Notes: a model not told the origin generated them from the letters alone. Shown: positions 24,885-50,447, counted from the stretch's first letter. The stretch is DNA of 55,825 bases from Candidatus Giovannonibacteria bacterium RIFOXYD1_FULL_48_21 (GCA_001778985.1 MFIU01000002.1:1-55825); one strand, 5' to 3'. Translations and numbers: made by a program.

Positions 24885-26100
24885 TTTGTTTGGCATTTGG
24901 ATTTTGTTATTTGGGATTTCTGGTGCGGCTACCGTTGACGAGCTGAAGGAATCTATCCAGGAGCGGGAGGGTCAAATCAGCGAAATAGAGGCGGAGATTG
25001 AAGAGTATCAGCGTCAGATTGACGTCAAGGTGGCCGAAGTGGGTACGCTTAAGAATGAAATTTTACGCCTGGAAGCGCTTTTAAAAAAATTAAACGCCGA
25101 GATCCGGCTGACCCAAAGCAAAATCCAAGCCTCCCAATTGACTCTGGAGAAGTTGAACATCGAAATCGGCGATAAATCCGAAGAGATTGAAGAGCAAAAG
25201 GAGGCCCTGGGAGAGATTCTGCGCAGTATCTACGAATCCGAGAGCGAATCCTTGGTAGAGATACTTCTGAAGCATCGCGCCCTTTCTGATTTTTTCGGCA
25301 ACCTCCGGCAGATTGAGAATCTGGAAGCGGCCGTGGGAAAAGATTTGGAAGTTTTAAAAACGCTTAAAAAAGAGCTGGAAGAACGCGAGGCCCAGGAGCT
25401 CGCGGCAAAGAAAAAACTGGATGATTTGTCTTTGGAGCTGAAAGACCGCCGCGCCATCGAAGAGGCAGGCCGCCAGAATAAAAACCAGCTTTTGAAAATT
25501 ACAAAAAATAAGGAGGCGGAATATCAAAAACTTTTGCGGGAGCGCGAGAAACAGCGAGCCTCAATCATCGAAGAAATTCGGGAGATTGAAGATGAACTTA
25601 GACTTTTGATTGACCCCTCTTCTTTGCCGGCGCCGCGTCCCGGAGTTCTGGCCTGGCCGCTCGCCGCGCCGAAAATTACCCAGGGCTTCGGGCGCACGGA
25701 TTTCGCGCTCAATACCGATGTCTACGGCGAGAAGAATCATAACGGCATTGACCTTAAAGCTTCCATCGGCACTCCAATTTTGTCGGCCGAAGACGGAGTG
25801 GTGAAGGCCGCGGGAAATTCGGATTTAATCTGCCCGGGCGGCTCTTACGGCAAATGGATTTTAATCGAACACCCTAATCGTCTGGCTACCCTTTACGCTC
25901 ACCTCTCGCATATTCGAATTTTAACGGACAGCAATGTGGCGCGGGGGGATATTATCGGTTACAGCGGCGATACTGGCTATACCACTGGCCCGCATCTTCA
26001 CTTCACGGTTTATGACGCGCGCACAGTCCAGATAAAGCCTTCTAGAGTTTGTGGTTTGTTGCCGTATGGAGGCTATCTTGACCCAATGGTTTATCTATAG
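24862..26100 (+). CDS. M23-family peptidoglycan metalloendopeptidase with an EnvC-like coiled-coil N-terminus
   Basis: It has a signal anchor, a long heptad-rich region, and the M23 motifs HNGIDL and GYSGDTGYTTGPHLHF. Confidence 0.85.
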   Translation: MRSRFWISLFGIWILLFGISGAATVDELKESIQEREGQISEIEAEIEEYQRQIDVKVAEVGTLKNEILRLEALLKKLNAEIRLTQSKIQASQLTLEKLNIEIGDKSEEIEEQKEALGEILRSIYESESESLVEILLKHRALSDFFGNLRQIENLEAAVGKDLEVLKTLKKELEEREAQELAAKKKLDDLSLELKDRRAIEEAGRQNKNQLLKITKNKEAEYQKLLREREKQRASIIEEIREIEDELRLLIDPSSLPAPRPGVLAWPLAAPKITQGFGRTDFALNTDVYGEKNHNGIDLKASIGTPILSAEDGVVKAAGNSDLICPGGSYGKWILIEHPNRLATLYAHLSHIRILTDSNVARGDIIGYSGDTGYTTGPHLHFTVYDARTVQIKPSRVCGLLPYGGYLDPMVYL

Positions 26101-26358
26101 ATATTAATGTTATTAAAGTTTATAAAAGTGAAAGGCCCCGGAATCGGAGCCTCTACTGTGGAAAAGAATCTTTTTGAAAATTTTATCTTGACAAAAGAAC
26201 TGATAAAGAGAAAAAACTGGGTCCAAAGAGCTAAAAGGAGAACTAAGGAGGAACTTTTGTTCTAAGAATAACATTTTTTGACAGCGCGTCAATATAGTTT
26301 TCCACAGCATTTGCTTCAAAAAAGTATACCGGCATACTAGACTTAAGCTAGATATCAG

Positions 26359-26387
26359 GGAAAGAGTCTTCTTTCCTTTTTTATTTT
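26359..26387 (+). terminator. intrinsic-terminator-like hairpin plus T-tract, 26 nt upstream of the giant ORF
   Basis: The stem is GGAAAGA-gtct-TCTTTCC (26359-26376), followed by TTTTTTATTTT. Confidence 0.5.
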
Positions 26388-26412
26388 GGCAAAGGGCTTA
26401 TGAATTACATCT

Positions 26413-29400
26413 TTGGAATCAAGGCAACACAACGTAGCCGACCTAATGAAGCGGCTTGGGCTTTCCAAGACCACGATTTTGCGTTGGGAAAAGGAAGGCA
26501 AGATACCGCCAGGACGCCGCGACGAGCTTGGCTGGCGCTGGTGGACCGAGGAGGAATTTGAGGGAATAGCAAAACTTACTTCTTCGGATTTTTCGAGGGA
26601 ATTTTTACCGAAACTTTCCAAAAAACCTTCAATAAAAGAAACGCCGCGTTTTACCTTTCCTGCCTTGCCGGCCTTGTCGGCAGACAGGCCGGCAGGCAGG
26701 CCTTCTTTTCGTACTTTCTTGGCGCCGGCTCTTTTGGCGGTTTTGGTTTTTAGCGCGGTCGCGGCTGATTTCGTTTCTTATTTCGAGAACGCGAGCTTCG
26801 TCGCCTCCGAGCGCCTTCAATACTCCGCTTTGTATCTGCGAAATCTAGTTCCGGCCAAACCCAGCGTCCAGTTTTCGTTCCGGCTCCCTGACGATTATTT
26901 TCTCGCCATGGGCCAGGACTTGAAGTCCTCGCTTCCGGAAATCGGCGCAGGCCTCCAAGACGGAATTTTTGAATTGCGGCGCTTGGTCGCCAATGTCGAA
27001 CCTCCAAGGTTCGACATTCGAATTTTGCGCCCAAGAAAATTTTCTCTTAGTCCCGGCTATTTTAGTCAAAGCGGCGCGCTTTTGGCAAATTTGACCGGCG
27101 AGGCCGAGAACTTTTTTTACCGCGTCGGCCAAACTTTAAACCGAATTTTTGATGAAAACAAACAATTTGTTTACTCGCTTTTTGCGCCTGCCTCGCCGGA
27201 AGGCGGGCCTCCAAATTTAACATCCGATGTTGGAGGAGAAACACCGGGCGTCGCTCCGGTTCTGTCTTCCGAGACCCAGTTTTTGCGTTTTGAGATTGAC
27301 TCTCTGCGTAAGGAGCTCGAAGCGCTTCGGGCCGCAGGAGTTCGTCTGGAAGGCGAAAAAGTAGTCGAGCGTATTTTTGAGCGGACTTTGGCCGAATTGC
27401 CTTCAGGCGACCTTGACGCGAAACTCGCTTCTTTGAATCAAGCCTTGCGCGAGGAGATTCTGACGGTCAGACGAGCCTTGGACGAAAAAACCCAGGCGAA
27501 CTTCAACGCCCTCGCGCTCACGCAGAGAATAAATACCCTGGGCCCGGTTTCAATTTCTTCTCCAACCATCTCAACTCCCACCATTACCGGTCAGGTGGAT
27601 AGTCTTACGGTGCGAACTCTGACCATTACCGGAAGCTGTTCCGGCTGCGGCGGCGGAAGTTCTAATACCAGCGGCTGGACCGATGACGGAACTATCGTCA
27701 GGCTCACTGATATCGGGGATTTGGTTGGGATCGGAACTTCAAGCCCTTACGCAAAATTGTCAGTGGTGGGAGAAGTCGTGGCAGCTTCCTTCACTGCGAC
27801 TTCCACCACCGCTACCTCAACTTTTTCCTGGGGAATTCAAACCCCGGCTTTAAATGTAACTTCGACAAGCGCGACTTCTACCTTTTCAAACGGCTTAAGA
27901 CTTTCAGGAGGCTGTTTTGAGCTTTCCAATGGCACCTGCGCTGGTTCAGGTGCTTCCATTGGCGGAGCAATTTCCGGAGGAACTTCGGGCTCTGTTCTTT
28001 TCGTGGACGCGAGCGCGAATCTGGCCCAAGACAACGCGAACCTTTTTTGGGATGACACGGGAAATATCCTAAGGGTTCTCAATGCCTCCAGCACCAATGC
28101 TTCGGTGATAGGCACTTTGACTATTGGCGGAACCGCGACCACGACCTTGTCAGGCAACACCGCCACCAGCACTTTCGCAGCCGGACTCGCTCTGACCGGC
28201 ACCTTGGATGTGAATAGCTCGACTGCCACTTCCACCTTTGCCAACGGCTTGAGGGTGGAAGGAGGCTGCGTCACTGTGGCTGGAGCATGCCTGACCAACC
28301 TGGGCCAGTCAATTGACCTGGCTTCTGAAGTCAGCGGCGTCCTGCCGATTGCGAATGGCGGCACCAACAATTCTTCAGCTTACACTTCTGGCTCTGTGAT
28401 TTTCTCAAATGGAACCTCTCTCACCCAGGACAATTCAAATTTCTTCTTTGACGACGCCAACAACCGGCTGGGAATCGGAACCACCTCTCCTTGGGGAATC
28501 CTTTCAGTGGAATCCTCTGCCGCGGCCGGAGCAACAAATCCCATCTTCGTGGTCTCTGACCAAGGGACCAGCACTCCCTTCCTGATCGTGGAAGGAAATC
28601 GAGGTTTTGTCGGGATTGGTACGACCACGCCGCAAGCCCAACTAGGTCTTAGTACTTTCTCCGGCTTCCCAAGCTTTATGGTTGGCTCTTCCACGACCCA
28701 GTTTTTGATTGACAAAAACGGCAACGTAGGCATCGGGACGACGGGGCCAGGGGCGGCACTTGATACAAAAATTACTTCTACTGCTGGACAAGGTACACTG
28801 ATTGCTCAATTTGGTTCTCAAACGTCCGCCAGAATCAGGCTGTACGATGAAACATCCACATTGGGTCCGGCAATAGATTTCAACGCTGGGAATGTTGGAC
28901 GAATCACTGGGGCAGGGAACATTGCAATAATGCCAACCAACAACGGCAACGTCGGCATCGGGACGACGAGTCCGGGGCAATTGCTCTCGGTCGCGGGGGA
29001 TATTTTGGGAAATAATATTATCGGTTCTTACTTTACAGCCACTTCGACGACCGCCACCAGCACTTTCGCAGCCGGACTCGCTCTGACCGGCACACTCGAC
29101 GTAAACAGCACTTCAGCCACGAGCACTTTCGCCAACGGCATCAGAATAGAAGGCGGGGGATTGACTGCTTCCACCCTCACTTCCTGCACAGCTCTGGAAA
29201 CGGATGCAAACGGAAATGTCCTTTGCGGTTCTGATGCCACGGGTTCAGGAGTAGGGATAGGCGACACAGTTACCTCCGGCACTACCGGCTCGATACTATT
29301 TGTCGGCTCCGGCCCCGTGTTAGCCCAGGACAACGCCAACCTTTTTTGGGATGACACCAACAACCGGCTGGGCATCGGAACGACGAGCCCGTGGGCAAAA

Positions 29401-31638
29401 CTTTCTGTAAATAATTACAGCTCCGGAGCTTCATCAGTTCCTCTGTTTACCGTAGCTTCTTCAACCGGAACTGGCGCAACTTCCACCGCGTTTATTATTA
29501 ATTCAGTCGGCAATATCGGCATCGGGACGACGAGTCCAAATGCTCTACTGCATCTTTTTTCAACAGTAGCTTCAAACAATAATCCCCAGTTGATTCTTCA
29601 AAATTATGCTGCCGGAGGTTATTTGCCCAGTATTTTATTTCAAGGCAATGAGGCCGGTTCACCAAATACTTATTCTGTTTCAAGAATAGTCGGCGGTTTT
29701 GAAGGTGGAGCAAATTGGTCAGATGCGGCTCTTGGTTTTGACGTGGGACAAACGTTGTCAAGGGTAATAACCCTTAAAGGTACCGGCAACGTCGGCATCG
29801 CTTCTACGACTCCTTTCTCTACTCTTTCCGTAAACGGTAACGTATGGCTTAACTCGAATATCCTAAACATCGCTTCTTCTTCTGCCTCCACTTTAACTGT
29901 TAATTATTTATCACGCGCGACTACCACAATTCCTTCCAATCAAATCTACGCCTGGTCAATCGCCACCTCCACCACCGCTTCTCCCTTGCTCACTTTCAAC
30001 ACCAATGGGCCCTACGCCACAACCTCAATAAACGGCGGGTTCGTAATCGATTCTGGAGCGGTTAATTATGATTCATCAAGCGGCATAATTTCCGCGGATT
30101 CAATTCAGACCGGGCCTATGGGTTTTGACACCGACGCCGGAATTGTTTCCTGGATTGACATGCCGGTCGCGACCACTTCGACTTCCAGAATTTCCATGAG
30201 CTATTCGGCGCAGATTGATTCAATTCCGATTCTGACGGTCTATGGAGAATCAACTGCGGGCGGAGGCGTTTCCACCACCACCGTGGGTATCGGCACAACT
30301 ACCCCGACCTGGCTTTTGCATCTTGCTTCCACCACGCCCTACCTCGCGCTCTCGGACACTGATGCCGGGCTCGACCAGAAGCACTGGCTCATTTCCAATC
30401 AATCCGGCTCCTTGAGATTCGGGACTTCCTCGGACGCGAATCCCTTTTCCACCAGCACCAATTTTATGCTCCAGAGGGGCGGGAACGCCGCGGTGCCGAA
30501 AGGCGCTTTCTGCGTGGATGACGATAACAGCGAGTGTCCGGTCGGTGCAATCCAGGGACGTTTGTACTCCATCAACGCCACGGTGCTTACGGACGACATC
30601 GCGGAGTTCATGCGCTCGGCAGAAAGCTTGGAGCCGGGGGATATCGTGATTCCTGATTCTGATTTCAAAAACAAGACCGCACGAAGTTACGAGCAGGAGC
30701 GAAGAAGCCGTGATTTGGGAACCACACTCGGCTTGGACGAGATTGGAGTTAAAAAATCTGTCAAACCTTACGAGTCCGCCATCCTTGGAGTTATTTCCAC
30801 CAAGCCGGGAATCTCGCTTGGAGGCTTCGAACCCACTCTGCAGGATTATGAAGTTACGCTCGCCGGACGGGTTCCGGTGAAAGTTTCGCTCGAGGGCGGC
30901 GCGATTAAAATCGGAGACAGGATTACTTCGAGTCCGATACCGGGAGTGGGCATGAAGGCAACAAGTTCCGGAATCACCATCGGAATTGCGCTTGAAGATT
31001 TCAACCCTTCGACAGGCTCAGGGCAAGCGTCCTCCACCGAGAAAATTCTGGTTTTTGTAAATCTCGGCTACTCCAAACTTGACGCCTCCATTCAAGGCGG
31101 CGAGATTGTCGAGCCCTCGGCTGTAGCCCTACGGGCGAAGCTGGACGGCGAAGGAGAATCGGCTTTCTGGGGGATTGACCAAACTTCCGGACGCATTAAA
31201 TTCATCTCGCCCTTGGACCTCAACGATTTTGATATCGTGAACGTCCGAGCGATTCTGGGCTCCGGAGGGAAATGGTCGATTGATTTCTCCGGCCGCCTCA
31301 CAGCCGAGGAAGTGTATACCAAAAAACTTTGTCTGGAAGAAGTCTGCGTGACCAAAGAGGAGCTGAAGAAACTTCTGGACTTAGCCGGTTCGGCGAGCCA
31401 GGCTTCGTCGCCTGAGGAGCAAACCTCCGATGAAGGTTTACCGGAGGAGGGGCCTCCGGAAGAGCCCCAGCCCTCCTCAACCGCACCCGGGAAAACATCC
31501 GATGTTTTAACTTCTTCAACATCGGATGTTGAGGAGGGTGCGGTTTCACCGGGCGAAGAGAGCCCGCCGCCGGAGCCGCCTCCTGAGCCCGAGCCTCCTC
31601 CAGTTTCTGATACCAGTACCACCACTCCGGCAACATGA
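26413..31638 (+). CDS. giant (1,741 aa) membrane-anchored protein: N-terminal MerR-type HTH, one TM helix, coiled coil, tail-fibre-like Thr/Ser/Gly-rich repeats, and a Pro/Glu-rich tail
   Basis: It is a single uninterrupted ORF. The HTH is LGLSKTTILRWEKEGKIPPGRRDELGWRWWTEEEF and the TM segment is FLAPALLAVLVFSAVAADFV. There are nine G(I/V)G(T/S)(T/S)xP..L(S/H)(V/L) motifs and six ATSTF(A/S)xG(L/I) motifs. The start is TTG 26413 or ATG 26446. Confidence 0.8.
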   Translation: MESRQHNVADLMKRLGLSKTTILRWEKEGKIPPGRRDELGWRWWTEEEFEGIAKLTSSDFSREFLPKLSKKPSIKETPRFTFPALPALSADRPAGRPSFRTFLAPALLAVLVFSAVAADFVSYFENASFVASERLQYSALYLRNLVPAKPSVQFSFRLPDDYFLAMGQDLKSSLPEIGAGLQDGIFELRRLVANVEPPRFDIRILRPRKFSLSPGYFSQSGALLANLTGEAENFFYRVGQTLNRIFDENKQFVYSLFAPASPEGGPPNLTSDVGGETPGVAPVLSSETQFLRFEIDSLRKELEALRAAGVRLEGEKVVERIFERTLAELPSGDLDAKLASLNQALREEILTVRRALDEKTQANFNALALTQRINTLGPVSISSPTISTPTITGQVDSLTVRTLTITGSCSGCGGGSSNTSGWTDDGTIVRLTDIGDLVGIGTSSPYAKLSVVGEVVAASFTATSTTATSTFSWGIQTPALNVTSTSATSTFSNGLRLSGGCFELSNGTCAGSGASIGGAISGGTSGSVLFVDASANLAQDNANLFWDDTGNILRVLNASSTNASVIGTLTIGGTATTTLSGNTATSTFAAGLALTGTLDVNSSTATSTFANGLRVEGGCVTVAGACLTNLGQSIDLASEVSGVLPIANGGTNNSSAYTSGSVIFSNGTSLTQDNSNFFFDDANNRLGIGTTSPWGILSVESSAAAGATNPIFVVSDQGTSTPFLIVEGNRGFVGIGTTTPQAQLGLSTFSGFPSFMVGSSTTQFLIDKNGNVGIGTTGPGAALDTKITSTAGQGTLIAQFGSQTSARIRLYDETSTLGPAIDFNAGNVGRITGAGNIAIMPTNNGNVGIGTTSPGQLLSVAGDILGNNIIGSYFTATSTTATSTFAAGLALTGTLDVNSTSATSTFANGIRIEGGGLTASTLTSCTALETDANGNVLCGSDATGSGVGIGDTVTSGTTGSILFVGSGPVLAQDNANLFWDDTNNRLGIGTTSPWAKLSVNNYSSGASSVPLFTVASSTGTGATSTAFIINSVGNIGIGTTSPNALLHLFSTVASNNNPQLILQNYAAGGYLPSILFQGNEAGSPNTYSVSRIVGGFEGGANWSDAALGFDVGQTLSRVITLKGTGNVGIASTTPFSTLSVNGNVWLNSNILNIASSSASTLTVNYLSRATTTIPSNQIYAWSIATSTTASPLLTFNTNGPYATTSINGGFVIDSGAVNYDSSSGIISADSIQTGPMGFDTDAGIVSWIDMPVATTSTSRISMSYSAQIDSIPILTVYGESTAGGGVSTTTVGIGTTTPTWLLHLASTTPYLALSDTDAGLDQKHWLISNQSGSLRFGTSSDANPFSTSTNFMLQRGGNAAVPKGAFCVDDDNSECPVGAIQGRLYSINATVLTDDIAEFMRSAESLEPGDIVIPDSDFKNKTARSYEQERRSRDLGTTLGLDEIGVKKSVKPYESAILGVISTKPGISLGGFEPTLQDYEVTLAGRVPVKVSLEGGAIKIGDRITSSPIPGVGMKATSSGITIGIALEDFNPSTGSGQASSTEKILVFVNLGYSKLDASIQGGEIVEPSAVALRAKLDGEGESAFWGIDQTSGRIKFISPLDLNDFDIVNVRAILGSGGKWSIDFSGRLTAEEVYTKKLCLEEVCVTKEELKKLLDLAGSASQASSPEEQTSDEGLPEEGPPEEPQPSSTAPGKTSDVLTSSTSDVEEGAVSPGEESPPPEPPPEPEPPPVSDTSTTTPAT
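26659..26700 (+). repeat. GC-rich palindromic element (class B) in-frame in the giant ORF
   Basis: The arms CCTGCCTTGCCGGCC (26659-26673) and GGCCGGCAGGCAGG (26687-26700) are inverted repeats with one indel. The loop contains TGTC..GACA. The element encodes PALPALSADRPAGR, between the HTH and the TM helix. Confidence 0.7.
28159..28202 (+). repeat. 44-bp exact intragenic direct repeat (second copy at 29050-29093)
   Basis: ACCGCCACCAGCACTTTCGCAGCCGGACTCGCTCTGACCGGCAC is identical at both positions. It encodes TATSTFAAGLALTGT. Confidence 0.9.
31005..31029 (+). repeat. 25-bp interspersed element CCCTTCGACAGGCTCAGGGCAAGCG (copy 1, in the giant ORF, read as PSTGSGQA)
   Basis: It is identical to 31961-31985 and sits in the same reading frame in both genes. 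Variants occur at 1-16 and 47449-47465. Confidence 0.9.
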
Positions 31639-32153
31639 GCGTAAAAATCAAAATAATAATTTTAGTTTCAATCCTCATCGCGGCTGGCGCCACGGCTTTT
31701 TGGCTCTGGCCGGAGAAAACGGCGCCGGAGGCAGGAGGAGCGGATAAAAATGAATATAAATCCGAATTGTTCAATTTTTCTTTTACGCCTCCCAACTCTA
31801 ATCTCCAGGAATTTGACGACGAAAACGGGCACGTGATTTTGGGAAGTTCTTTTCAGATTTTCATAACTCCGTTTGACGAAACAGGGCCGATTACTCCGGA
31901 ACGGATTAAAAAAGATCTGCCGAACGCGGTTGTTGAAAATCCAACTCCGACAAAAGTAGGCCCTTCGACAGGCTCAGGGCAAGCGGACGCCTTGAGCTTT
32001 ATCGGGCAGGGAGACGGATTTAAAACCGCCGAAGTCTGGTTTGTCTGGCCGCCCGAACCCTACCCGAATGGGAATTACCTGTATCAGATAACGGCGAAGG
32101 TGGAAGACGCAAAATTGCTGGAAGGGATTATTTCAACATGGAGCTTCCAATAA
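31635..32153 (+). CDS. small membrane-anchored hypothetical protein (172 aa)
   Basis: Its ATG overlaps the giant ORF's stop (ATGA), which suggests translational coupling. The N-terminal TM segment is IIILVSILIAAGATAFWLW. No recognisable domain was found. Confidence 0.7.
   Translation: MSVKIKIIILVSILIAAGATAFWLWPEKTAPEAGGADKNEYKSELFNFSFTPPNSNLQEFDDENGHVILGSSFQIFITPFDETGPITPERIKKDLPNAVVENPTPTKVGPSTGSGQADALSFIGQGDGFKTAEVWFVWPPEPYPNGNYLYQITAKVEDAKLLEGIISTWSFQ
31961..31985 (+). repeat. 25-bp interspersed element, copy 2 (read as PSTGSGQA in the 172-aa ORF)
   Basis: It matches 31005-31029 exactly, while the flanks are unrelated. Confidence 0.9.
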
Positions 32154-32154
32154 A

Positions 32155-32183
32155 TTTTCAATTTTGCAATTTATAATTTTCAA
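32155..32183. repeat. left AT-rich inverted repeat flanking the four-helix-bundle gene
   Basis: TTTTCAATTTTGCAATTTATAATTTTCAA matches the reverse complement of 32586-32613 (TTATCAATTTACAATTTACAATTTTCAG) at about 24 of 28 positions by hand alignment. Confidence 0.55.
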
Positions 32184-32193
32184 TCAATTTTTA

Positions 32194-32562
32194 ATGAACC
32201 AATTTTCAAATCAGAAATACGATTTAGAAGAAAGAACAGCGCAATTCGGTGAAGCTATAATTAAGCTTTGTCGAAGCGTCAATCAAGATGTTATTGCGAA
32301 ACCGATTGTTTCCCAATTGATTCGTTCGGCTACCAGTATCGGCGCGAACTACATGGAAGCAAATGGCGCAAGTTCCAAAAAGGACTTTATCAATAAAATA
32401 TTTATTTGCAAAAAAGAAGCGCAAGAGACAAAGCACTGGCTACGCATGTTGGTCGTTTGTGCGCCTGATAAAAACTTAGAGGCAAGAAAGCTGTGGCAAG
32501 AATGCCAAGAGCTGACTTTGATATTCCAAAAAATCGCTTCGTCAGCGCGAAATAAAGTTTGA
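32194..32562 (+). CDS. four-helix-bundle protein (23S rRNA intervening-sequence protein / DGR Avd-like family)
   Basis: YDLEERT..F...I......V........SQLIRSATSIGANYMEANGA.SKKDF..K...C.KEA.ET.HWL is typical of the TIGR02436/PF05635 family. The start is taken at ATG 32194; the ORF track uses TTG 32164. Confidence 0.8.
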   Translation: MNQFSNQKYDLEERTAQFGEAIIKLCRSVNQDVIAKPIVSQLIRSATSIGANYMEANGASSKKDFINKIFICKKEAQETKHWLRMLVVCAPDKNLEARKLWQECQELTLIFQKIASSARNKV

Positions 32563-34766
32563 AAATTATTATGTTTGAGAATTCACTGAAAATTGTAAAT
32601 TGTAAATTGATAATTCCGCTTTTGGTTGTTTTGGTTTTTGTATTGTCGCCAAAAGCGGTTGATGCCGCCTTACTCATAAACCGCCCTCTTTACATCGGTC
32701 TAACCTCCGGCCTCGTCGGCTACTGGTCTTTTGACGGGCCGGATGTTGCCGGGATTCCCAGCACAGCAACCACACCTGGGACAGTTTACGATCGCTCTGG
32801 CAACGGAAATAACGGGCTATACTGGAATGCCACTGGCACGCCTCCCGCCATCGGCCGCATCGGCCAGGCGCTGGAATTCAAAGGAGCGCCCACTCGTACG
32901 TACGTAAAAGTTTCCAATTTCTGTTCACAGATTTCTAATAATGCGGGCGCTATCTCGGTTTGGATAAAAGCTGCAGTAATTACAACTGTTGTGAATGACA
33001 ACCATTATATTTTCAATTGCGGTTCGGGCCACAGCCCCTCCTTAGTGATTATAGGCGGGAGCACCCCAGCGCTTAGGTTTATAAAAAGTACTAGCAATAG
33101 TAACGTAATGTCGTCACCCGCCGCTAATCGTTGGTATTATATAGTTGCTACATGGGATACAAACGTACAACGCGTTTATGTTGATTCGGTTCAAACAGAT
33201 TCTGATGCTATAGCTTCAATATCTCCTTCTGGAGATGCAGCGATAGGCACTTTTGCTACCATTCCTCAAAATAACAATTATTTCAACGGCATCATTGACG
33301 ACTTCCGCGTCTACAACCGCGCGCTAACGGCCGACGAAATCAAGCGGCTATACAAAATCGGGGCGACGCTGAAAGTCAATAAACCCAGCTATACCGGTCT
33401 TGATTCCGGCCTCGTCGGATACTGGTCTTTTGACGGGCCGGATATGTACAACAACACTGCGCTTGACCGCTCCGGGCAGGGCAACAACGGCACCCTCACC
33501 AACGGCCCCAAACGCGCTATCGGCAAAATCGGCCAGGCGCTGGAGTTTGACGCCTTTTCTGGGACGCATTCTCATGTACAAGTAGGAGATAAAGCGAGTT
33601 TAGACTTTGGAACAAGCGACTTTACGCTTTCTGCGTGGATAAAAGCCAAAGCCACTCAGGATTCATTTCCATCAATAATACATAAAGGGGCGACCGCAGG
33701 AAGTGGTTCTCCAGGTTATTGGTGGATCCTCTCTTCTGGCATATCAAAATTTTTTATGAGCAACAGTACGAATAGAGTAGAAAGTATAGCGATTACAAAT
33801 CTTAGAGACAATAGCTGGCATCATGTTTCTGTAGTGGTTGACCGCGACGGCATGACAACTCATTACATCGATGGAATAGTTGATGACGCAGATAATTTAA
33901 GCTCTTACAGTGCCAGCGATATAAATGCAACAGAAGAGTTTAGTATAGGTGGAAGAGATACCGGAGGCTCGTTGGAATTTACCGGCCTCATTGATGACGT
34001 CCGCATCTACAACCGCGAGCTTTCTCCGGACGAAATCAAGCGGCTCTACCGCATCGGGGCGACGCTGAAGGTTAATAAACCCCTTGCCACCGGCTCTCTG
34101 ACCTCCGGCCTCGTCGGCTATTGGTCTTTTGACGGGCCGGATATGGCGGGAAACACGGCTTTTGACCGAAGCGGGCAGGGCAACAACGGTACGCTCACCA
34201 ACGGCCCTGTTCGCACTCTCGGCAAAATCGGCCAGGCGCTGGATTTTGATGGGAGTAATGATTATGTGGGTATGGGCGATCCTACAAGCGGCATTTTGGA
34301 TTTTTCTGATACTCAAAGCTTTACAATTTCTGTGTGGTCATATCGTACCGGTCCAAATACTATTGCTCAGCGATTAGTTGCTAAAAATCAAACTGGAGCA
34401 GCACAAAACGGTTATCGTTTGATTTATGAGACAGATGATAAGTACACGATGCGTGTTGATGACTCCGTTAATGGGGTTCAGGTTACCTCATCAGCTATGA
34501 ACACATTAAATATCTGGCACCATGTCGTTGGCGTCATTGATAGAGCAAATCAAATTTTGCGGCTATATGTTGACGGTGTGGAAAATGGAACCCCTCTTGA
34601 TATTTCAGCCGTAGGAAGCCTAGCAAATGCACTAAACTTCGATATAGGAGTTGCTAGCAACTTAACGGCTGGTAGTTTTGTGGTTGGTAAAATTGACGAT
34701 GTCCGCGTCTATAACAGGGTATTAACTAGCGATGAAATAAAACGTTTATATAATCTTGGCCGATGA
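32559..34766 (+). CDS. secreted or anchored protein with three tandem LamG (concanavalin-A-like lectin) modules
   Basis: It has an N-terminal hydrophobic anchor. The junction LVGYWSFDGPD...DRSG.GNNG......IGKIGQAL.FDG occurs three times and IDD.R.YNR.L...EIKRLY occurs three times. The start is TTG 32559 or ATG 32571. Confidence 0.8.
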   Translation: MKIIMFENSLKIVNCKLIIPLLVVLVFVLSPKAVDAALLINRPLYIGLTSGLVGYWSFDGPDVAGIPSTATTPGTVYDRSGNGNNGLYWNATGTPPAIGRIGQALEFKGAPTRTYVKVSNFCSQISNNAGAISVWIKAAVITTVVNDNHYIFNCGSGHSPSLVIIGGSTPALRFIKSTSNSNVMSSPAANRWYYIVATWDTNVQRVYVDSVQTDSDAIASISPSGDAAIGTFATIPQNNNYFNGIIDDFRVYNRALTADEIKRLYKIGATLKVNKPSYTGLDSGLVGYWSFDGPDMYNNTALDRSGQGNNGTLTNGPKRAIGKIGQALEFDAFSGTHSHVQVGDKASLDFGTSDFTLSAWIKAKATQDSFPSIIHKGATAGSGSPGYWWILSSGISKFFMSNSTNRVESIAITNLRDNSWHHVSVVVDRDGMTTHYIDGIVDDADNLSSYSASDINATEEFSIGGRDTGGSLEFTGLIDDVRIYNRELSPDEIKRLYRIGATLKVNKPLATGSLTSGLVGYWSFDGPDMAGNTAFDRSGQGNNGTLTNGPVRTLGKIGQALDFDGSNDYVGMGDPTSGILDFSDTQSFTISVWSYRTGPNTIAQRLVAKNQTGAAQNGYRLIYETDDKYTMRVDDSVNGVQVTSSAMNTLNIWHHVVGVIDRANQILRLYVDGVENGTPLDISAVGSLANALNFDIGVASNLTAGSFVVGKIDDVRVYNRVLTSDEIKRLYNLGR
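32586..32613. repeat. right AT-rich inverted repeat flanking the four-helix-bundle gene
   Basis: CTGAAAATTGTAAATTGTAAATTGATAA lies within the 5' end of the LamG ORF. See 32155-32183. Confidence 0.55.
32706..34142 (+). repeat. LamG module junction blocks recurring with a 699-bp period
   Basis: TCCGGCCTCGTCGG(C/A)TA(C/T)TGGTCTTTTGACGGGCCGGAT occurs at 32706, 33405 and 34104, a spacing of 699 and 699 bp. ATCGGCCAGGCGCTGGA is also present three times. Confidence 0.9.
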
Positions 34767-34926: not shown

Positions 34927-35175
34927 ATGGGAGCTCATAAAACCAAAGAAGCAATCCCATTTCGCCCAAGCCTTTTTTGGGACGCGGATCCGGCCACAAT
35001 AGACCCGGATAAAAATGCCAAGTATATTATTGAGCGGATAATGGATTTTGGTAATGATCAGGAAGCCCGCTGGATATATAGGCGATATCCTCGCCCGTTT
35101 CTTCGTGATGTTGTAAAAAAATCGCGGAGTCTTCATCCGCAATCCAGAGTATTGTGGGAAGCTCTGACGAAGTAA
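34927..35175 (+). CDS. small protein partnered with an AbiEii-type nucleotidyltransferase (putative antitoxin)
   Basis: The 82-aa product has the motif LFWDADPATIDPDKNAKYIIERIMDFG. It overlaps the downstream toxin-like gene by 22 nt. By my recollection this family commonly precedes AbiEii/DUF1814 genes. Confidence 0.6.
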   Translation: MGAHKTKEAIPFRPSLFWDADPATIDPDKNAKYIIERIMDFGNDQEARWIYRRYPRPFLRDVVKKSRSLHPQSRVLWEALTK

Positions 35176-35831
35176 CAAAAGAGTGGCATACGGATGCCCT
35201 TCCGGCGGAAACAAAACGCGCGCTGGATTTTTTGTCTCGTGCGGAATGGTTGCGCCAATCTTCGTGGTATCTTGCCGGCGGCACTGCTTTAGCATTGCAT
35301 GTTGGCCATCGGGAATCGCTTGATCTTGATTTTTTTACACAAGATAAGTCTGTAGAAGTTTCTCTTATTTCTGGTCATTTTTCAAACGATGTATGGCAAA
35401 CGGAGATTCTTCGTGAGGGAACGTTGTACGGGAAGTTCCTCGGCGCAAAAATAAGCTTTATTTTGTATCCATTTTTTCACCGAAGATCAGCGCCCCGTGA
35501 ATATGGAGCAATTCGGGTGCTCGCGCCTTCTGATGTGGCAGTTATGAAAATAATAGCCATTAGCCAGCGCGGCAAGAAACGCGATTTTGTAGATCTCTAC
35601 TGGTATGCGCTTCATCAAGAGCCAATACTAGATGTGATTCGCCGTTTGCCGGACCAATATCCAACTGTTGCTCATGATTTCCACCATATTCTAAAAAGCA
35701 TGATGTATTTTGCAGATGCGGAAGCCGATCCTATGCCTACCTTATTTTTCAAGGCAGATTGGAAAACGATTAAAGCATATTTTCAAAAAGTGGTTCCTGA
35801 AATTACAAAAGAATTGCTCCGGTTAAAATAA
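35154..35831 (+). CDS. nucleotidyltransferase AbiEii/AbiGii toxin family protein
   Basis: WYLAGGTALALHVGHRESLDLDFF is the NTase signature of the family. The start is GTG 35154. Confidence 0.75.
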   Translation: MGSSDEVTKEWHTDALPAETKRALDFLSRAEWLRQSSWYLAGGTALALHVGHRESLDLDFFTQDKSVEVSLISGHFSNDVWQTEILREGTLYGKFLGAKISFILYPFFHRRSAPREYGAIRVLAPSDVAVMKIIAISQRGKKRDFVDLYWYALHQEPILDVIRRLPDQYPTVAHDFHHILKSMMYFADAEADPMPTLFFKADWKTIKAYFQKVVPEITKELLRLK

Positions 35832-49750: not shown

Positions 49751-50447
49751 AATTATTTTAGTCGGGATTTTTCTCTTGGCTTTAGCGTGGCTGGTTCGAG
49801 AGAATTGGAAGAGCGAGAGCCGCGAAGCCGGAGCGCCTTTCTTTAGGATGGCCGGAAGTTTTAGAAATTTTTTCGGGTTAAACGAACGGAGCGCCGAGCT
49901 TGAAGCCCAGAAGGAAGAACTCCGGATAAAACTTGAGAGCCTGGAGGCCCGGGAAAGCGAGTTTAAGGACTTGGAGAAATTTTTAGTCGCCGAACGTCCT
50001 TCTGGAAAAATCGCGCTCATTTTAAGCCAAGCGCCGAGTTCGCCTTACGACACGCTTTTGCTCTCGGCCGGCCGGGAAGACGGAGTTACGGCCGGATTTA
50101 AAGCTTTAGCCTATGGCGGGATATTTTTGGGGAAAGTGGAAGAGAGCGGCGAGAGGACCTCGCTCGTAAAATTGATTTCTTTCCCGGGGCTTCAGAGCGA
50201 AGCCTGGCTGGAACGCCTGGCTCTTAACGTAACCCTGGAGGGGCAAGGCGGCTACAATCTTCGTTTTTTCCTGCCCAAGAGCGCGGTCGTTCAAATAGGC
50301 GAGCGCGTTCTTTCCAACACCCGGCCGAGTTTCATAATCGGACAGGTGGAGAGGATAAATGAAAAAACATCCGAGCCTCTCGCGGAGATTATTCTTCGTC
50401 TCCCTCTGAATATCAGAAACTTGCGCTATGTGGAACTTCTTCCTTAG
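49725..50447 (+). CDS. mreC: rod-shape-determining protein MreC
   Basis: It has an N-terminal TM segment, a coiled coil (ELEAQKEELRIKLESLEARESE) and a beta-rich C-terminus. It lies between mreB and mreD. The start is taken at ATG 49725. Confidence 0.75.
   Translation: MKKNFRLLRIILVGIFLLALAWLVRENWKSESREAGAPFFRMAGSFRNFFGLNERSAELEAQKEELRIKLESLEARESEFKDLEKFLVAERPSGKIALILSQAPSSPYDTLLLSAGREDGVTAGFKALAYGGIFLGKVEESGERTSLVKLISFPGLQSEAWLERLALNVTLEGQGGYNLRFFLPKSAVVQIGERVLSNTRPSFIIGQVERINEKTSEPLAEIILRLPLNIRNLRYVELLP

What the first reader, a model, noticed from the sequence alone, without database searches (positions are those of the whole stretch)
26413..31638. Giant ORF fusing a cytoplasmic MerR-type HTH to a TM helix and a ~1,600-aa tail-fibre-like ectodomain
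Seen in the sequence: one uninterrupted 5.2-kb frame.
- The first ~55 residues (…VADLMKRLGLSKTTILRWEKEGKIPPGRRDELGWRWWTEEEFEGI) fit the MerR-family HTH pattern (T-[LI]-x-x-[WY]-E-x-x-G-x-[IL]-x-P…G-x-R-x-[YW]-[ST]-x-E-[ED]-[LF]).
- About 50 residues later there is a single strongly hydrophobic helix (FLAPALLAVLVFSAVAADFV).
- A coiled coil follows (LRFEIDSLRKELEALRAAG…).
- Next come about 900 aa of Thr/Ser/Gly-rich repeats, with nine G(I/V)G(T/S)(T/S)xP…L(S/H)V motifs, six ATSTF(A/S)xG(L/I) motifs, three (A/T)QDN(A/S)N(L/F)F(W/F)DD motifs, and a 44-bp exact internal repeat.
- A block ILGVISTKPGISLGG…LAGRVPVKVSLEGGAIKIGDRITSS follows. From recollection only, it resembles the C-terminal intramolecular-chaperone/auto-cleavage domain of phage tail spikes and fibres.
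- The protein ends in a Pro/Glu/Ser/Thr tail.

Inference: the predicted topology places a DNA-binding domain inside the cell and a huge fibre outside. This would be a membrane-tethered one-component regulator whose output could be coupled to contact or tension on a surface fibre, or released by regulated intramembrane proteolysis. An RseP site-2 protease is encoded at 46393-47445. I know of no characterised MerR-HTH/fibre fusion.
Basis: partly seen in the sequence, partly recalled or inferred. Interest (0 to 1): 0.78.

Follow-up and report, generated by a model that had tools for sequence, protein, structure and literature searches.

The report
Giant surface fibre fused to DNA-binding domain
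A candidate-phyla-radiation (CPR) bacterium encodes a 1,741-residue membrane-anchored surface fibre whose short intracellular end is a MerR-type DNA-binding domain; this fusion recurs in many related bacteria and probably lets the fibre protein bind a conserved DNA palindrome in front of its own gene.

Summary
ORF 26413-31638 is one uninterrupted 1,741-aa frame. An independent assembly, 99.8% identical with no indels, carries the same HTH-to-fibre join.

**Architecture**
- aa 1-63: MerR-type winged HTH. It passes Pfam's cut-off, models at pLDDT above 90, and its best fold matches are RacA, NmlR and BldC.
- aa 102-121: a single TM helix.
- Helical stalk, then about 1,000 aa of trimeric beta-helix fibre. 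Its nine VGIGTTSP...L repeats match only Bdellovibrio MAT fibre structures (E=5e-14).
- C-terminal domain: remotely homologous to the phi29 gp12 auto-chaperone, not to S74.

**Distribution**
- HTH-TM-stalk-fibre is a recurrent CPR family with two HTH flavours (MerR-like and HTH_17-like).
- Variants exist with a plain signal peptide, with no fibre, and as a split pair of adjacent HTH and fibre genes.

**New evidence**
A 14-bp palindrome (GTATACCGGTATAC) lies 80-133 nt upstream of these HTH genes in several lineages. In the 55.8-kb window it occurs once (26324-26337).

**Verdict**
- This is most likely a self-anchored adhesion fibre whose cytoplasmic HTH binds its own promoter.
- Release by tension or by intramembrane proteolysis has no specific support. 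RseP is present, but in a housekeeping context 15 kb away.
- I rate it a new variant of known kinds, of real interest.

The parts
26298..26306 (+). TTTTCCACA box (one mismatch from TTATCCACA). It lies about 18 nt upstream of the palindrome in the window, and about 16-21 nt upstream in the related loci.
   Evidence: Conserved as TTATCCACA in the orthologous intergenic regions. The same box precedes HTH_17-type fibre genes in L002 and L005-L007. The window holds 15 such boxes against 7 expected. What binds it is unknown.
26324..26337 (.). Candidate operator: 14-bp palindrome GTATACCGGCATAC (consensus GTATACCGGTATAC), 89 nt before the TTG start.
   Evidence: It is the only site with 3 or fewer mismatches in the 55.8-kb window and the longest conserved block of the orthologous intergenic alignment. 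It is perfect in L014 and in L008, whose genomic context is unrelated. It has one mismatch in L010/L024 (split HTH plus fibre) and in L026. Binding by the HTH is inferred, not shown.
26357..26388 (+). Hairpin followed by a T-run in the 5' leader (terminator- or attenuator-like).
   Evidence: Found. Every orthologue has a hairpin plus T-run at the same position, with different stem sequences. There is no Rfam match, and the fold energy of the whole leader is not unusual (z=-0.49).
26413..31638 (+). Complete ORF, 1,741 aa, TTG start.
   Evidence: The independent ENA contig L004 is 99.82% identical over 25162-29623 with no gaps.
26413..26601 (+). Cytoplasmic MerR-type winged helix-turn-helix, aa 1-63.
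   Evidence: Pfam MerR scores above its cut-off. Model pLDDT is 90-97, with strand 5-7, helices 8-15 and 19-27, a modelled strand at 42-45 in the wing region (aa 34-45), and helix 46-63. Best Foldseek matches are the RacA DNA-binding domain 5i44 (rmsd 2.0 A over 52 aa, 29% identity), NmlR, BldC and CarH. The invariant residues K19, T21, R24, W25, E26, G29, D37 and R42 lie on the recognition helix and wing.
26602..26715 (+). Disordered cytoplasmic linker, aa 64-101, carrying the conserved FLPKLSK motif (26602-26622).
   Evidence: pLDDT is below 50. The motif FLPxLSK recurs in P0122, P0125, P0129, L013-L015 and L022.
26716..26775 (+). Single transmembrane helix, aa 102-121 (signal anchor, N-terminus inside).
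   Evidence: Kyte-Doolittle mean 2.24, and the only hydrophobic segment in the protein. It is modelled as a helix from aa 99.
26776..27267 (+). Juxtamembrane extracytoplasmic region, aa 122-285, predicted helical at low confidence.
   Evidence: It is homologous (35% identity over aa 1-190) to the 371-aa fibre-less orthologue in L017-L020.
27268..27597 (+). Helical stalk, probably a coiled coil, aa 286-395, with the family motif TQANFNALALTQRINTLG (27490-27543).
   Evidence: Helices with pLDDT mostly 67-92. The module is conserved in 25 aligned family members of both HTH flavours and gave exhaustive-search hits down to E=3e-17.
27598..30591 (+). Thr/Ser/Gly-rich fibre body, aa 396-1393, with nine VGIGTTSPxxxL 'capping-loop' repeats and five of the six Cys pairs.
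   Evidence: A profile built from the window's own nine repeats hits, at E up to 1e-4, only Bdellovibrio MAT fibre structures: 8ond E=4.6e-14, and 8ol4, 8oml and 8ojn at about 5e-5. The motif equals the MAT capping-loop consensus in PMC10769870. Internal duplications are shown.
30592..30609 (+). DDIAEF, aa 1394-1399: predicted auto-cleavage site motif.
   Evidence: The family motif D[LIV]AE.Y aligns with residue 1 (DFAEYF) of the phi29 gp12 C-terminal fragment 3gqh. Mature gp12* ends at residue 691 (PMC6542822). Cleavage in this protein is inferred only.
30592..31389 (+). C-terminal auto-chaperone-like domain, aa 1394-1659: a beta-rich core (aa about 1395-1570) plus a small beta/alpha unit (aa about 1600-1659).
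   Evidence: 117 homologues. In the AlphaFold model, most of the core (aa about 1390-1530) has pLDDT of about 80-97, with one loop near 60; mean pLDDT is 74.8. Foldseek matches phi29 pre-mature gp12 3suc and phage capsid decoration proteins. The profile hits 3gqh at E=5.4e-4.
31390..31635 (+). Pro/Glu/Ser/Thr low-complexity tail, aa 1660-1741.
   Evidence: The same ...PPxSDTSTTTPAT ending occurs in the syntenic relative P0004/L001.
31635..32153 (+). Overlapping downstream ORF, 172 aa: N-terminal TM helix or signal peptide plus a small ectodomain.
   Evidence: Its ATG overlaps the fibre gene's stop by 4 nt. It is conserved in L001 and L019 (35% identity, E=2e-15) even where the fibre is absent. 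Function unknown.

Best explanation
The gene encodes a type-II (N-in, C-out) membrane-anchored surface fibre of a Parcubacteria/CPR bacterium.

**Outside the cell**
- A helical stalk carries about 1,000 aa of trimeric beta-helix fibre of the Bdellovibrio MAT / phage tail-fibre kind.
- Folding and trimerisation are assisted by a phi29-gp12-like C-terminal auto-chaperone.
- That chaperone is probably cut off at the DDIAEF motif (aa 1394-1399).
- The fibre most likely serves attachment to a host or a surface.

**Inside the cell**
- The first 63 residues form a minimal MerR/RacA/BldC-type winged HTH on a flexible linker of about 40 residues.
- This domain stays tethered to the membrane.
- It binds the 14-bp palindrome GTATACCGGYATAC in the gene's own promoter region, so the fibre protein feeds back on its own synthesis.
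- The arrangement looks like a gene fusion (Rosetta stone) of a small autoregulator with the surface-protein gene it controls.

**Shown**
- The domain architecture and its recurrence across lineages.
- The homologies to MerR-type HTHs, MAT fibres and phi29 gp12.
- The conservation, uniqueness and position of the palindrome.

**Inferred**
- DNA binding to that site, and the sign of the regulation.
- Trimerisation, auto-cleavage and adhesion.
For: **The fusion is real**
- The frame is uninterrupted.
- Independent contig L004 is 99.82% identical with no indel across the HTH/TM join.
- Orthologous loci L013-L015, L022 and L023 keep one ORF from the HTH into the fibre: at least 1,393 aa in L014 and at least 1,205 aa in L015.
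- Of 46 MerR-flavour hits in the exhaustive search, 19 have a TM helix after the HTH.
- About 20 further large proteins carry an HTH_17-like domain in the same place, for example P0187 (2,352 aa) and P0123 (2,124 aa).

**HTH**
- Pfam MerR scores above its cut-off.
- The model has pLDDT above 90, and every top fold match is a DNA-bound MerR-type domain.
- The invariant residues sit on the recognition helix and the wing.
- The best 120 of the 742 profile hits are all stand-alone proteins of 64-121 aa; 16 of them carry the source name 'DNA-binding transcriptional MerR regulator'.

**Operator candidate**
- The palindrome is the only match with 3 or fewer mismatches in the window.
- It is conserved in the orthologous intergenic alignment.
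- It is present 80-133 nt upstream of HTH genes in L008, L010/L024, L014 and L026, across different genomic contexts.

**Split form**
- In L010/L024 a 79-aa HTH gene directly precedes a gene for a signal peptide plus the same ectodomain that is fused to HTH plus TM in P0134 and P0197.

**Fibre**
-.

**Auto-chaperone**
-.

**Topology**
-.
Against: - No experiment or transcript data exist, so binding of the HTH to the palindrome rests on inference from co-occurrence.
- A trimeric fibre would present three HTHs, whereas a palindrome suits two.
- The -10-like element beside the palindrome is weak in the window itself (TAGACT).
- A hairpin plus T-run lies between the palindrome and the start codon. 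The promoter layout is therefore unclear, and the conserved block could belong to another regulator or to a small transcript.
- A TTATCCACA box is also conserved, and it is shared with the HTH_17-type genes. This points to at least one other factor acting there.
- Orthologues of 371 aa lack the fibre altogether (L017-L020). The N-terminal module therefore has a role that does not depend on the fibre.
- Pfam's Peptidase_G2 and Peptidase_S74 models do not match the C-terminal domain.
Confidence: 0.55

Rival explanations
1. The protein would be a contact or tension sensor. Pulling on, or ligand binding by, the fibre would trigger site-1 cleavage and then RseP (site-2) cleavage within the membrane. 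That would release the HTH to act on distant promoters, as in Notch, RsgI or MyRF.
For: - The N-in HTH / TM / ectodomain topology fits.
- An M50 site-2 protease with a PDZ domain is encoded at 46393-47445.
- The TM segment contains a helix-breaking Pro.
- HTH-TM modules are combined with several different ectodomains, as expected of sensors.
- MyRF shows that tail-spike chaperone domains can drive the release of a transcription factor (PMC10769870).
Against: - RseP lies 15 kb away beside proS, in a housekeeping setting. Such proteases are near-universal, so its presence says nothing specific.
- No neighbour is conserved among the family loci.
- The juxtamembrane region is modelled as helices with no SEA-like or other cleavage fold (low confidence).
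- The auto-chaperone sits at the far extracellular end. Its cleavage would free the chaperone, not the HTH.
- The only candidate binding site in 55.8 kb lies at the gene's own promoter.
Confidence: 0.12
2. The HTH would act as a structural DNA-membrane tether in the manner of RacA. It would anchor the nucleoid, or incoming DNA, to the base of the fibre rather than regulate transcription.
For: - The best structural match of the HTH is the RacA DNA-binding domain.
- NCBIfam's weak top hit is also RacA.
- By my recollection, the RacA site is likewise a 14-bp inverted repeat centred on CCGG.
- In L005 the fibre gene lies next to a VirD4-like coupling protein.
Against: - RacA-type anchoring uses many sites, whereas the window has a single site, at the gene's own promoter.
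- NCBIfam RacA scores reach 18 bits against a cut-off of 265.
- Stand-alone 70-aa homologues lie directly upstream of surface-protein genes, which is the layout of a local regulator.
Confidence: 0.1
3. The N-terminal domain would not bind DNA at all. It would be a protein-interaction or localisation module, as the HTH of RodZ binds MreB, or an evolutionary relic.
For: - RodZ has the same HTH-TM-ectodomain layout.
- The window encodes two MreB paralogues, MreC and PBP2.
- Conserved short cytoplasmic motifs (FLPxLSK in one flavour, [DE]xW[DE]xxLLG in the other) suggest protein partners.
- Fibre-less 371-aa orthologues lie beside a cell-wall gene cluster.
Against: - The invariant positions are those of the recognition helix and wing.
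- The closest relatives are 64-121-aa proteins with no room for any other function.
- A specific palindrome travels with the gene across genomic contexts.
- Xre-type HTH models score only weakly (E 0.01-0.2), and there is no RodZ C-terminal domain.
Confidence: 0.1
4. The fusion would be an artefact: a chimeric assembly, an undetected frameshift, or two genes read as one.
For: - One contig (L025) has a frameshift between the HTH and the TM helix.
- L016 and L002 have frame changes inside the fibre.
- L010/L024 carry a true split version.
Against: - Independent assembly L004 has the same join, with 8 SNPs and no indel.
- More than ten orthologous contigs and dozens of distant family members keep the HTH and TM helix in a single ORF.
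- GC content shows no break at the join.
Confidence: 0.03

Closest known systems
Bdellovibrio bacteriovorus MAT (mosaic adhesive trimer) fibres, e.g. Bd2133 and Bd3182 (Caulton et al. 2024, PMC10769870; PDB 8ond, 8oml, 8ojn, 8ol4)
   Same: - Long surface fibre built from trimeric beta-helix segments, punctuated by the capping-loop motif VG(I)G/N..P...L.
- A profile of the window's own repeats hits only these structures at E up to 1e-4 (E=4.6e-14).
- Modular, exchangeable C-terminal ends, including chaperone domains.
- A presumed role in cell-to-cell recognition by a bacterium that lives on other bacteria.
   Different: - MAT proteins start with a signal peptide and an invariant beta-rich N-domain of about 130 aa, thought to bind a surface element.
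- This protein instead has a cytoplasmic HTH, a TM helix and a helical stalk.
- Its chaperone is gp12-like, not S74.
- The host is a monoderm-like CPR bacterium, not a diderm predator.
Bacteriophage phi29 gp12 tail spike (pre-neck appendage; PDB 3gqh, 3suc; MEROPS/Pfam Peptidase_G2)
   Same: - The same order of parts: attachment end, three-helix coiled-coil stem, beta-helix, then a C-terminal auto-chaperone that is removed (PMC6542822).
- The family profile aligns D[LIV]AE.Y...G[VI][VI]S..PG with the first 50 residues of the released gp12 fragment.
- Foldseek match to 3suc, prob 1.0.
   Different: - Only remote similarity (E about 5e-4), and the Pfam model does not match.
- Cellular rather than viral, and anchored in a membrane rather than on a phage collar.
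- Cleavage is untested.
ToxR/CadC-type membrane-bound one-component regulators
   Same: - N-terminal cytoplasmic DNA-binding domain, one TM helix, and an extracytoplasmic C-terminal domain.
- They can act on promoters while membrane-bound.
   Different: - Those use an OmpR/PhoB-type winged helix and a small periplasmic sensor.
- Here the DNA-binding domain is MerR-type and the outside part is a 1,600-aa structural fibre.
Minimal MerR-type DNA binders RacA (B. subtilis) and BldC (Streptomyces)
   Same: - A winged HTH of about 60 aa without the MerR effector domain.
- They are the best structural matches.
- RacA links DNA to a membrane-associated structure.
   Different: - RacA and BldC are soluble.
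- RacA has a C-terminal coiled coil and reaches the pole through DivIVA.
- Sequence scores are far below the NCBIfam RacA cut-off.
MyRF (eukaryotic myelin regulatory factor)
   Same: - A membrane-tethered transcription factor that contains phage tail-spike parts.
- It shares the capping-loop motif noted in PMC10769870.
   Different: - From my own knowledge: in MyRF the S74 chaperone lies on the same side of the membrane as the DNA-binding domain, and its self-cleavage releases that domain.
- Here the chaperone is at the far extracellular end, and the DNA-binding domain is of another fold.
RodZ
   Same: Cytoplasmic HTH, one TM helix and an extracytoplasmic domain. The HTH has a non-transcriptional role, which offers a precedent for one of the rival explanations.
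   Different: RodZ has an Xre-type HTH and a RodZ C-terminal domain. Neither is detected here.

Membership tests
MerR superfamily winged HTH (Pfam PF00376/PF13411) | Sequence match to the family model above the curated cut-off | tested here: met
   PF00376 scores 30.6 bits on the whole protein and 34.7 bits on the first 130 aa (cut-off 28.2). PF13411 scores 25.0 bits (cut-off 21.6) on the N-terminal 130 aa.
MerR superfamily winged HTH (Pfam PF00376/PF13411) | Fold: helix-turn-helix, beta-hairpin wing, then a third helix | tested here: met
   AlphaFold pLDDT is 90-97 for aa 1-55. The top Foldseek matches are RacA, NmlR, BldC, CarH, CadR, MtaN and GlnR, at rmsd 1.5-2.4 A over about 50 aa.
Canonical MerR-family regulators (MerR, CueR, BmrR) | Long dimerisation helix and C-terminal effector-binding domain after the wHTH | tested here: not met
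   A disordered linker follows aa 63, and then the TM helix. NCBIfam CueR, ZntR and CadR models score 12-17 bits against cut-offs of 143-244.
Canonical MerR-family regulators (MerR, CueR, BmrR) | Dyad operator inside an over-long (19-20 bp) -35/-10 spacer | tested here: inconclusive
   The conserved 14-bp palindrome lies directly upstream of a -10-like TATAAT in 5 of 6 orthologues. No clear -35 element was found and no transcription start is known.
MAT fibre family (Caulton et al. 2024) | Repeated capping-loop motif within beta-helix fibre segments | tested here: met
   Nine copies. The repeat profile hits 8ond at E=4.6e-14, and 8ol4, 8oml and 8ojn at about 5e-5.
MAT fibre family (Caulton et al. 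2024) | Signal peptide followed by the conserved beta-rich N-terminal domain of about 130 aa | tested here: not met
   The N-terminus is an HTH, a linker, a TM helix and helical regions. The paper's definition is quoted.
MAT fibre family (Caulton et al. 2024) | Homotrimeric assembly | not testable with these tools
   Only monomer models could be made.
Peptidase_S74 (endosialidase-type intramolecular chaperone) | Match to PF13884, with the Ser-Lys (SDxxxK) catalytic motif | tested here: not met
   The window protein has no hit at E up to 1. S74 is present in relatives: P0074 at 26.6 bits (cut-off 22) and P0138 at 20.1 bits.
Peptidase_G2 / phi29 gp12 C-terminal auto-chaperone | Sequence or structure similarity to the gp12 C-terminal domain | tested here: inconclusive
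   There is no Pfam hit. However, the family profile hits 3gqh at E=5.4e-4, and Foldseek matches 3suc at E=1.1e-3, prob 1.0, TM 0.29/0.14.
Peptidase_G2 / phi29 gp12 C-terminal auto-chaperone | Conserved residues at the cleavage site (gp12 Ser691 | Asp692-Phe-Ala-Glu) | tested here: met
   The window's T-D-D-I-A-E-F (aa 1393-1399) and the family motif D[LIV]AE align with chain residue 1 of 3gqh. Actual cleavage could not be tested.
ToxR-like membrane-bound one-component regulators | Cytoplasmic DNA-binding domain, one TM helix, extracytoplasmic domain | tested here: met
   The topology is inferred from the sequence.
ToxR-like membrane-bound one-component regulators | OmpR/PhoB-type (Trans_reg_C) DNA-binding domain | tested here: not met
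   Only MerR and HTH_17 models match.
Substrates of regulated intramembrane proteolysis by RseP/RasP | Known site-1 cleavage module or a genetic link to the protease | tested here: not met
   No such fold appears in the model. RseP lies in a housekeeping context 15 kb away, and the family loci share no conserved neighbour. Cleavage itself cannot be tested here.
RodZ | Xre-type HTH plus RodZ C-terminal domain | tested here: not met
   Xre-type HTH models (HTH_3, HTH_26, HTH_31) reach only E 0.01-0.2, and there is no C-terminal match.
RacA | NCBIfam equivalog score; C-terminal coiled coil that binds DivIVA | tested here: not met
   18.3 bits against a cut-off of 265. The similarity is confined to the wHTH.

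The most novel reading that the evidence does not exclude
The fibre would act as a contact sensor for an episymbiotic CPR cell. Engagement or mechanical load on the extracellular trimer would change the oligomeric state or the integrity of the membrane-tethered HTH. The route could be clustering, or stepwise proteolysis ending with RseP. Attachment to a host would then directly switch transcription. That would be a bacterial analogue of Notch or MyRF, built from phage tail-fibre parts and a MerR domain.
Probability: 0.12. Interest if true: 0.9.

Novelty: new variant of a known kind. Interest (0 to 1): 0.66.

Why it matters
- **Open question it addresses.** CPR/Patescibacteria are a large share of bacterial diversity, and all cultivated members live attached to other microbes. 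How they recognise hosts, and how they sense attachment, is largely unknown.
- **What the family offers.** It places a sequence-specific DNA-binding domain and a host-facing fibre on one polypeptide. A candidate operator is already in hand.
- **Why it is testable.** The link between surface structure and gene control can be tested with a short DNA fragment and a 65-residue peptide.
- **Wider points.**
  - It extends the Bdellovibrio MAT / tail-fibre fibre type to monoderm-like ultrasmall bacteria, with a new anchoring mode.
  - It shows a phi29-type auto-chaperone in cellular proteins.
  - It gives a clear Rosetta-stone case of a regulator and its target gene found split or fused.
- **Practical consequence.** Public annotations call these proteins 'hypothetical', and at least one (P0118) starts the gene 11 codons late.

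Tried and rejected
- **Word-indexed search with aa 1-420** found nothing. The exhaustive HMMER search was needed instead.
- **Pfam, NCBIfam and PHROGs on the C-terminal 412 aa** gave nothing significant.
- **Single-sequence phmmer of the whole protein against PDB** gave only weak CueR/MerR hits (E 0.4-0.8). Profiles were required.
- **Alignments A1 and A4** were too diverse for locus scanning.
- **The genome-contig scan with A2** returned only two loci, one cut by the contig end and one interrupted by a frame change.
- **P0129** is not on record for a contig look-up.
- **Phage collection search with the ectodomain** gave three weak hits: a 'tail fiber protein' of Synechococcus phage S-B28 (33.6% identity over about 115 aa) and a hypothetical protein of a Pelagibacter phage. 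There is thus no close phage relative and no sign of a prophage.
- **Rfam on the window and on the leader** found only a tRNA and sub-threshold noise.
- **Leader RNA fold energy** is not unusual (z=-0.49), so I make no riboswitch claim.
- **Conserved neighbours that might explain signalling** were sought in L005-L008. None was shared, apart from LamG-domain proteins in the window, L001, L007 and L019.
- **Literature searches** for a described HTH-TM-fibre family in CPR, or for a membrane-tethered MerR, found nothing.
- **Origin-of-replication reading of the TTATCCACA boxes** was considered and dropped. GC skew rises monotonically, and the main cluster of boxes lies upstream of mraZ.

Full report

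Window 26413-31638 (+) is one open frame of 1,741 codons. The in-frame codon at 26401-26403 is TGA. The only start that keeps the whole first helix of the HTH is TTG at 26413. Close relatives also begin with Leu (P0122, P0127). A public gene call (P0118) begins at Met12 and so clips the domain.

- **HTH.** Pfam MerR (PF00376) matches aa 8-43 at 30.6 bits on the whole protein and 34.7 bits on the first 130 aa, against a cut-off of 28.2.
- **TM helix.** There is exactly one strongly hydrophobic segment, aa 102-121 (Kyte-Doolittle mean 2.24). It has more K/R on its N-side.
- **Motifs.** The three motif families occur 8 (+1 variant), 6 and 3 times.
- **Repeat.** The 44-bp exact repeat lies at 28159 and 29050.
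- **RseP.** A Peptidase_M50 plus PDZ gene lies at 46393-47445.

**2. Is the fusion an artefact?**

No.
- An independent ENA assembly (L004) matches window 25162-29623 at 99.82% identity, with 8 substitutions and no gap. It therefore spans the M23 peptidase gene, the intergenic region, the HTH, the TM helix and 1 kb of fibre.
- A metagenome scan with the HTH found the orthologous locus in many contigs. The gene order is M23 peptidase, HTH/TM gene, small TM protein, 23S-rRNA-IVP protein, LamG-domain protein.
- In those contigs a single ORF runs from the HTH into the fibre: at least 1,393 aa in L014, at least 1,205 aa in L015 and at least 793 aa in L022. Each is cut only by the contig end.
- One contig (L025) has a frameshift between the HTH and the TM helix. 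L016 has frame changes inside the repeats. Four sister contigs of L025 (L017-L020) are intact there, so these look like errors or decay.

**3. What each part is**

*N-terminus.*
- The model of aa 1-420 gives pLDDT 90-97 for aa 1-55. It has the MerR layout: strand, helix 8-15, helix 19-27, a wing region (aa 34-45) with a modelled strand at 42-45, and helix 46-63.
- The best Foldseek matches in PDB are all DNA-binding MerR-type domains. They are the RacA-DNA complex 5i44 (rmsd 2.0 A over 52 aa, 29% identity), then NmlR, BldC, CarH, CadR, MtaN and GlnR.
- After aa 63 the chain is disordered up to the TM helix. It lacks the MerR dimerisation helix and effector domain, so it is a minimal wHTH like RacA or BldC, not a canonical MerR regulator.
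- A profile of this HTH subfamily finds 742 proteins. The best 120 are all stand-alone CPR proteins of 64-121 aa; 16 of them carry the source name 'DNA-binding transcriptional MerR regulator'.
- The invariant positions (K19, T21, R24, W25, E26, G29, D37, R42) lie on the recognition helix and the wing.

*Topology.*
- A folded domain with no preceding signal peptide, one signal-anchor helix and a positive-inside charge bias all point to N-in, C-out.
- All 12 Cys lie beyond aa 400, as six pairs 3-13 residues apart. This is typical of an extracytoplasmic protein.

*Stalk.*
- Helices at aa 286-375 reach pLDDT of up to 92.
- They carry the most conserved module of the whole family (VVERxIERxxSGL..DLD..L..LN..LL..I..LK......ANFxAIALTQRIDxL).

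*Fibre.*
- A profile built only from the window's nine VGIGTTSPxxxL repeats hits, at E up to 1e-4, only Bdellovibrio MAT fibres in the whole PDB. Bd2133 (8ond) scores E=4.6e-14 over three stretches, and 8ol4, 8oml and 8ojn score about 5e-5.
- Caulton et al. describe this motif as the 'capping loop' of trimeric beta-helix fibre segments (PMC10769870).

*C-terminal domain.*
- It has 117 homologues. All those named by a source are CPR, except one from a deltaproteobacterium, one from a Planctomycetota bacterium and one from a Woesearchaeota archaeon.
- In the AlphaFold model, most of the core (aa about 1390-1530) has pLDDT of about 80-97, with one loop near 60.
- Foldseek matches pre-mature phi29 gp12 (3suc, E=1.1e-3, prob 1.0) and phage capsid decoration proteins.
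- The family profile hits the released gp12 C-terminal fragment 3gqh (E=5.4e-4).
- In that alignment the family's conserved D[LIV]AE.Y aligns with the fragment's very first residues, DFAEYF.
- Mature gp12* ends at residue 691 (PMC6542822). The window's T-D-D-I-A-E-F (aa 1393-1399) is therefore the predicted cleavage site.
- Pfam's S74 and G2 models do not match the window protein. S74 does occur in family members P0074 and P0138.
- From stalk to end, the order of parts (coiled-coil stem, beta-helix, auto-chaperone) is that of a phage tail spike.

**4. The family**

- The exhaustive search with aa 1-420 returned 139 cluster representatives.
- Of the 46 with the MerR-like HTH, 19 have a TM helix after it, and 16 of those are 200 aa or longer. 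P0119 has two HTHs in tandem.
- A second set shares the stalk and fibre but begins with a different wHTH (SLKxASxxSGYxxDYIGQLCRxGKIxxxRIGRxWFV). It matches Pfam HTH_17: 27.3 bits against a cut-off of 27 in P0132, and 22-26 bits in others.
- Full-length examples of that set are P0187 (2,352 aa), P0123 (2,124 aa) and P0138 (1,840 aa). They sit in housekeeping contexts (gatB, secA, glycolysis).
- Other members have only a signal peptide or anchor (L003, P0147, P0166).
- The named organisms are Parcubacteria lineages: Giovannonibacteria, Yonathbacteria, Liptonbacteria, Colwellbacteria, Falkowbacteria and Buchananbacteria.

Two variants are informative:
- **Fibre-less orthologue.** In L017-L020 the orthologue, in the same synteny, is only 371 aa: HTH, TM helix and juxtamembrane region. 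The small TM protein follows directly. The N-terminal module is therefore a unit in its own right.
- **Split form.**
  - In L010/L024 the closest stand-alone HTH (P0127, 79 aa, 57% identical) ends a few bases before an ATG.
  - The ORF that starts there encodes a signal peptide plus the same ectodomain that P0134 and P0197 carry fused to HTH plus TM.
  - In L011/L012 another stand-alone HTH directly precedes two secreted Thr/Ser-rich proteins.
  - HTH and surface protein are thus linked whether split or fused. This is a Rosetta-stone relation that argues for a functional tie.

**5. A candidate operator**

- Aligning the intergenic region of six orthologues shows poor overall conservation, apart from a few blocks.
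- The longest block is GGTATACCGGTAT.
- The full element is a 14-bp palindrome, GTATACCGGTATAC.
  - Window: 26324-26337, one mismatch, 89 nt before the start.
  - Perfect in L014.
  - Two to three mismatches, all at one end, in L009, L013, L015, L019, L021 and L022.
- The same element also occurs outside the orthologous locus:
  - perfect 133 nt upstream of P0130 (L008), a distant family member in an unrelated context;
  - one mismatch upstream of the split pair in L010/L024;
  - one mismatch upstream of another HTH-TM gene in L026.
- In the 55.8-kb window it is the only site with three or fewer mismatches.
- My estimate of the chance of one site with one mismatch or fewer in a 300-nt upstream region is about 5e-5. 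It occurs in at least four independent lineages.
- HTH genes of the other sequence group (DRDKTT...GLIP) lack it and show other palindromes, such as GTACTATAGTAC in L011. This is what one expects if the recognition helix and its site change together.
- This is the best available evidence that the tethered HTH is a sequence-specific DNA binder acting on its own promoter. It remains circumstantial.

The region also holds other conserved features:
- a TTATCCACA box about 16-21 nt upstream of the palindrome in the related loci (about 18 nt in the window);
- a -10-like TATAAT just downstream of it in five of six orthologues;
- a hairpin plus T-run (window 26357-26388);
- an out-of-frame ATGAAWT 13 nt before the TTG.

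I cannot explain these last features. Because the TTATCCACA box also precedes HTH_17-type fibre genes, a second factor is implied.

**6. Mechanism**

*Most likely (confidence about 0.55).* This is a self-anchored, probably trimeric adhesion fibre.
- Its C-terminal auto-chaperone is removed after assembly.
- Its cytoplasmic wHTH, held at the membrane on a linker of about 40 residues, binds the palindrome in its own promoter.
- That binding sets the level of fibre synthesis.

Shown:
- the architecture and its recurrence;
- the homologies;
- the site's conservation and uniqueness.

Inferred:
- DNA binding;
- the direction of control;
- trimerisation;
- cleavage;
- adhesion.

- RseP lies 15 kb away next to proS.
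- No cleavage fold is seen next to the membrane.
- Cleavage of the auto-chaperone would not free the HTH.

*Other rivals.*
- A RacA-like tether is disfavoured by the single site.
- A RodZ-like protein-binding role is disfavoured by the pattern of invariant residues.

**7. Comparison and novelty**

- Each part is of a known kind: MerR-type wHTH, MAT/tail-fibre beta-helix, gp12-type auto-chaperone, and the ToxR-like topology.
- The protein fails defining features of each family as a whole; see the membership table.
- I found no description of the combination in the literature searched.
- MyRF is an instructive eukaryotic analogue with a different arrangement.
- I rate it a new variant of known kinds. 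It is well supported as a real and widespread family, and it yields a directly testable prediction.

Noticed in passing
window 31005-31029 and 31961-31985: An exact 25-nt repeat, CCCTTCGACAGGCTCAGGGCAAGCG, lies in frame in two adjacent genes. It encodes PSTGSGQA in a loop of the fibre's C-terminal domain and again in the downstream 172-aa ORF. The L019 orthologue of the small ORF has a gap exactly there, so it looks like a short inserted element. Similar 'TGQA' strings occur in P0004 and P0008.
   Followed up: partly
window 54686-54857; also 26157-26165 (-) and 26298-26306 (+): TTATCCACA-like (DnaA-box-like) 9-mers are enriched: 15 against about 7 expected, with 0 of 100 shuffles reaching 15. 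Four lie around the start of mraZ (54792): three within about 110 nt upstream and one just inside the gene. Two lie in the intergenic region before the fibre gene. The same box precedes the fibre genes in L002 and L005-L007. Whether DnaA, MraZ or another factor binds it is unknown.
   Followed up: partly
window 26357-26388: A hairpin plus T-run lies between the candidate operator and the start codon. It is kept at the same position in all orthologues, with different stem sequences. It may be an attenuator, or the end of a small transcript. There is no Rfam match.
   Followed up: partly
window 26400-26406: A conserved ATGAAWT lies exactly 13 nt upstream of the TTG start, so out of frame, in the window and in all five orthologous loci aligned with it (L013-L015, L019, L022). 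Its role is unexplained; a ribosome-binding signal, a -10 element or an upstream ORF are possibilities.
   Followed up: no
L017-L020 (e.g. L019 3998-5110): In the same synteny, the orthologue is only 371 aa: HTH, TM helix and juxtamembrane region, with no stalk, fibre or chaperone. It occurs in four separate metagenome contigs.
   Followed up: yes
window 32559-34766; L001 2634-4112; L007 12782-15004; L019 6054-8168: A large secreted protein with Laminin_G_3 / pentaxin-like domains lies downstream of the fibre gene, both in the window and in distant family loci. This hints at a surface-protein gene neighbourhood.
   Followed up: no
L002 11671-12257: In the Giovannonibacteria genome the HTH_17-TM-fibre ORF (P0126, 787 aa) stops, and fibre-like sequence continues in another frame. 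The cause may be a frameshift, a pseudogene or an assembly error in the repeats.
   Followed up: no
P0167 (aa about 500-790): One family member appears to carry an intein-like insertion (CVTGDSVL ... VAHNT) inside its fibre. This rests on reading the sequence only.
   Followed up: no
L005 3731-5659: A VirD4/TraG-like coupling protein and a sigma-70 region-4 protein lie just upstream of the 2,352-aa family member P0187, and a Y1 transposase lies downstream. This copy may sit on a mobile element.
   Followed up: no
window 42392-43405, 48698-49750, 49695-50447, 50864-52684: The window encodes two MreB paralogues, MreC and a PBP2-type transpeptidase. It also holds two separate mur/ftsW/murG stretches and mraZ. 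That is a full rod-shape and division toolkit in what appears to be a CPR genome.
   Followed up: no
window 35154-35831 and 32164-32562: An AbiEii-type toxin nucleotidyltransferase gene and a 23S-rRNA-intervening-sequence protein gene flank the surface-protein genes.
   Followed up: no
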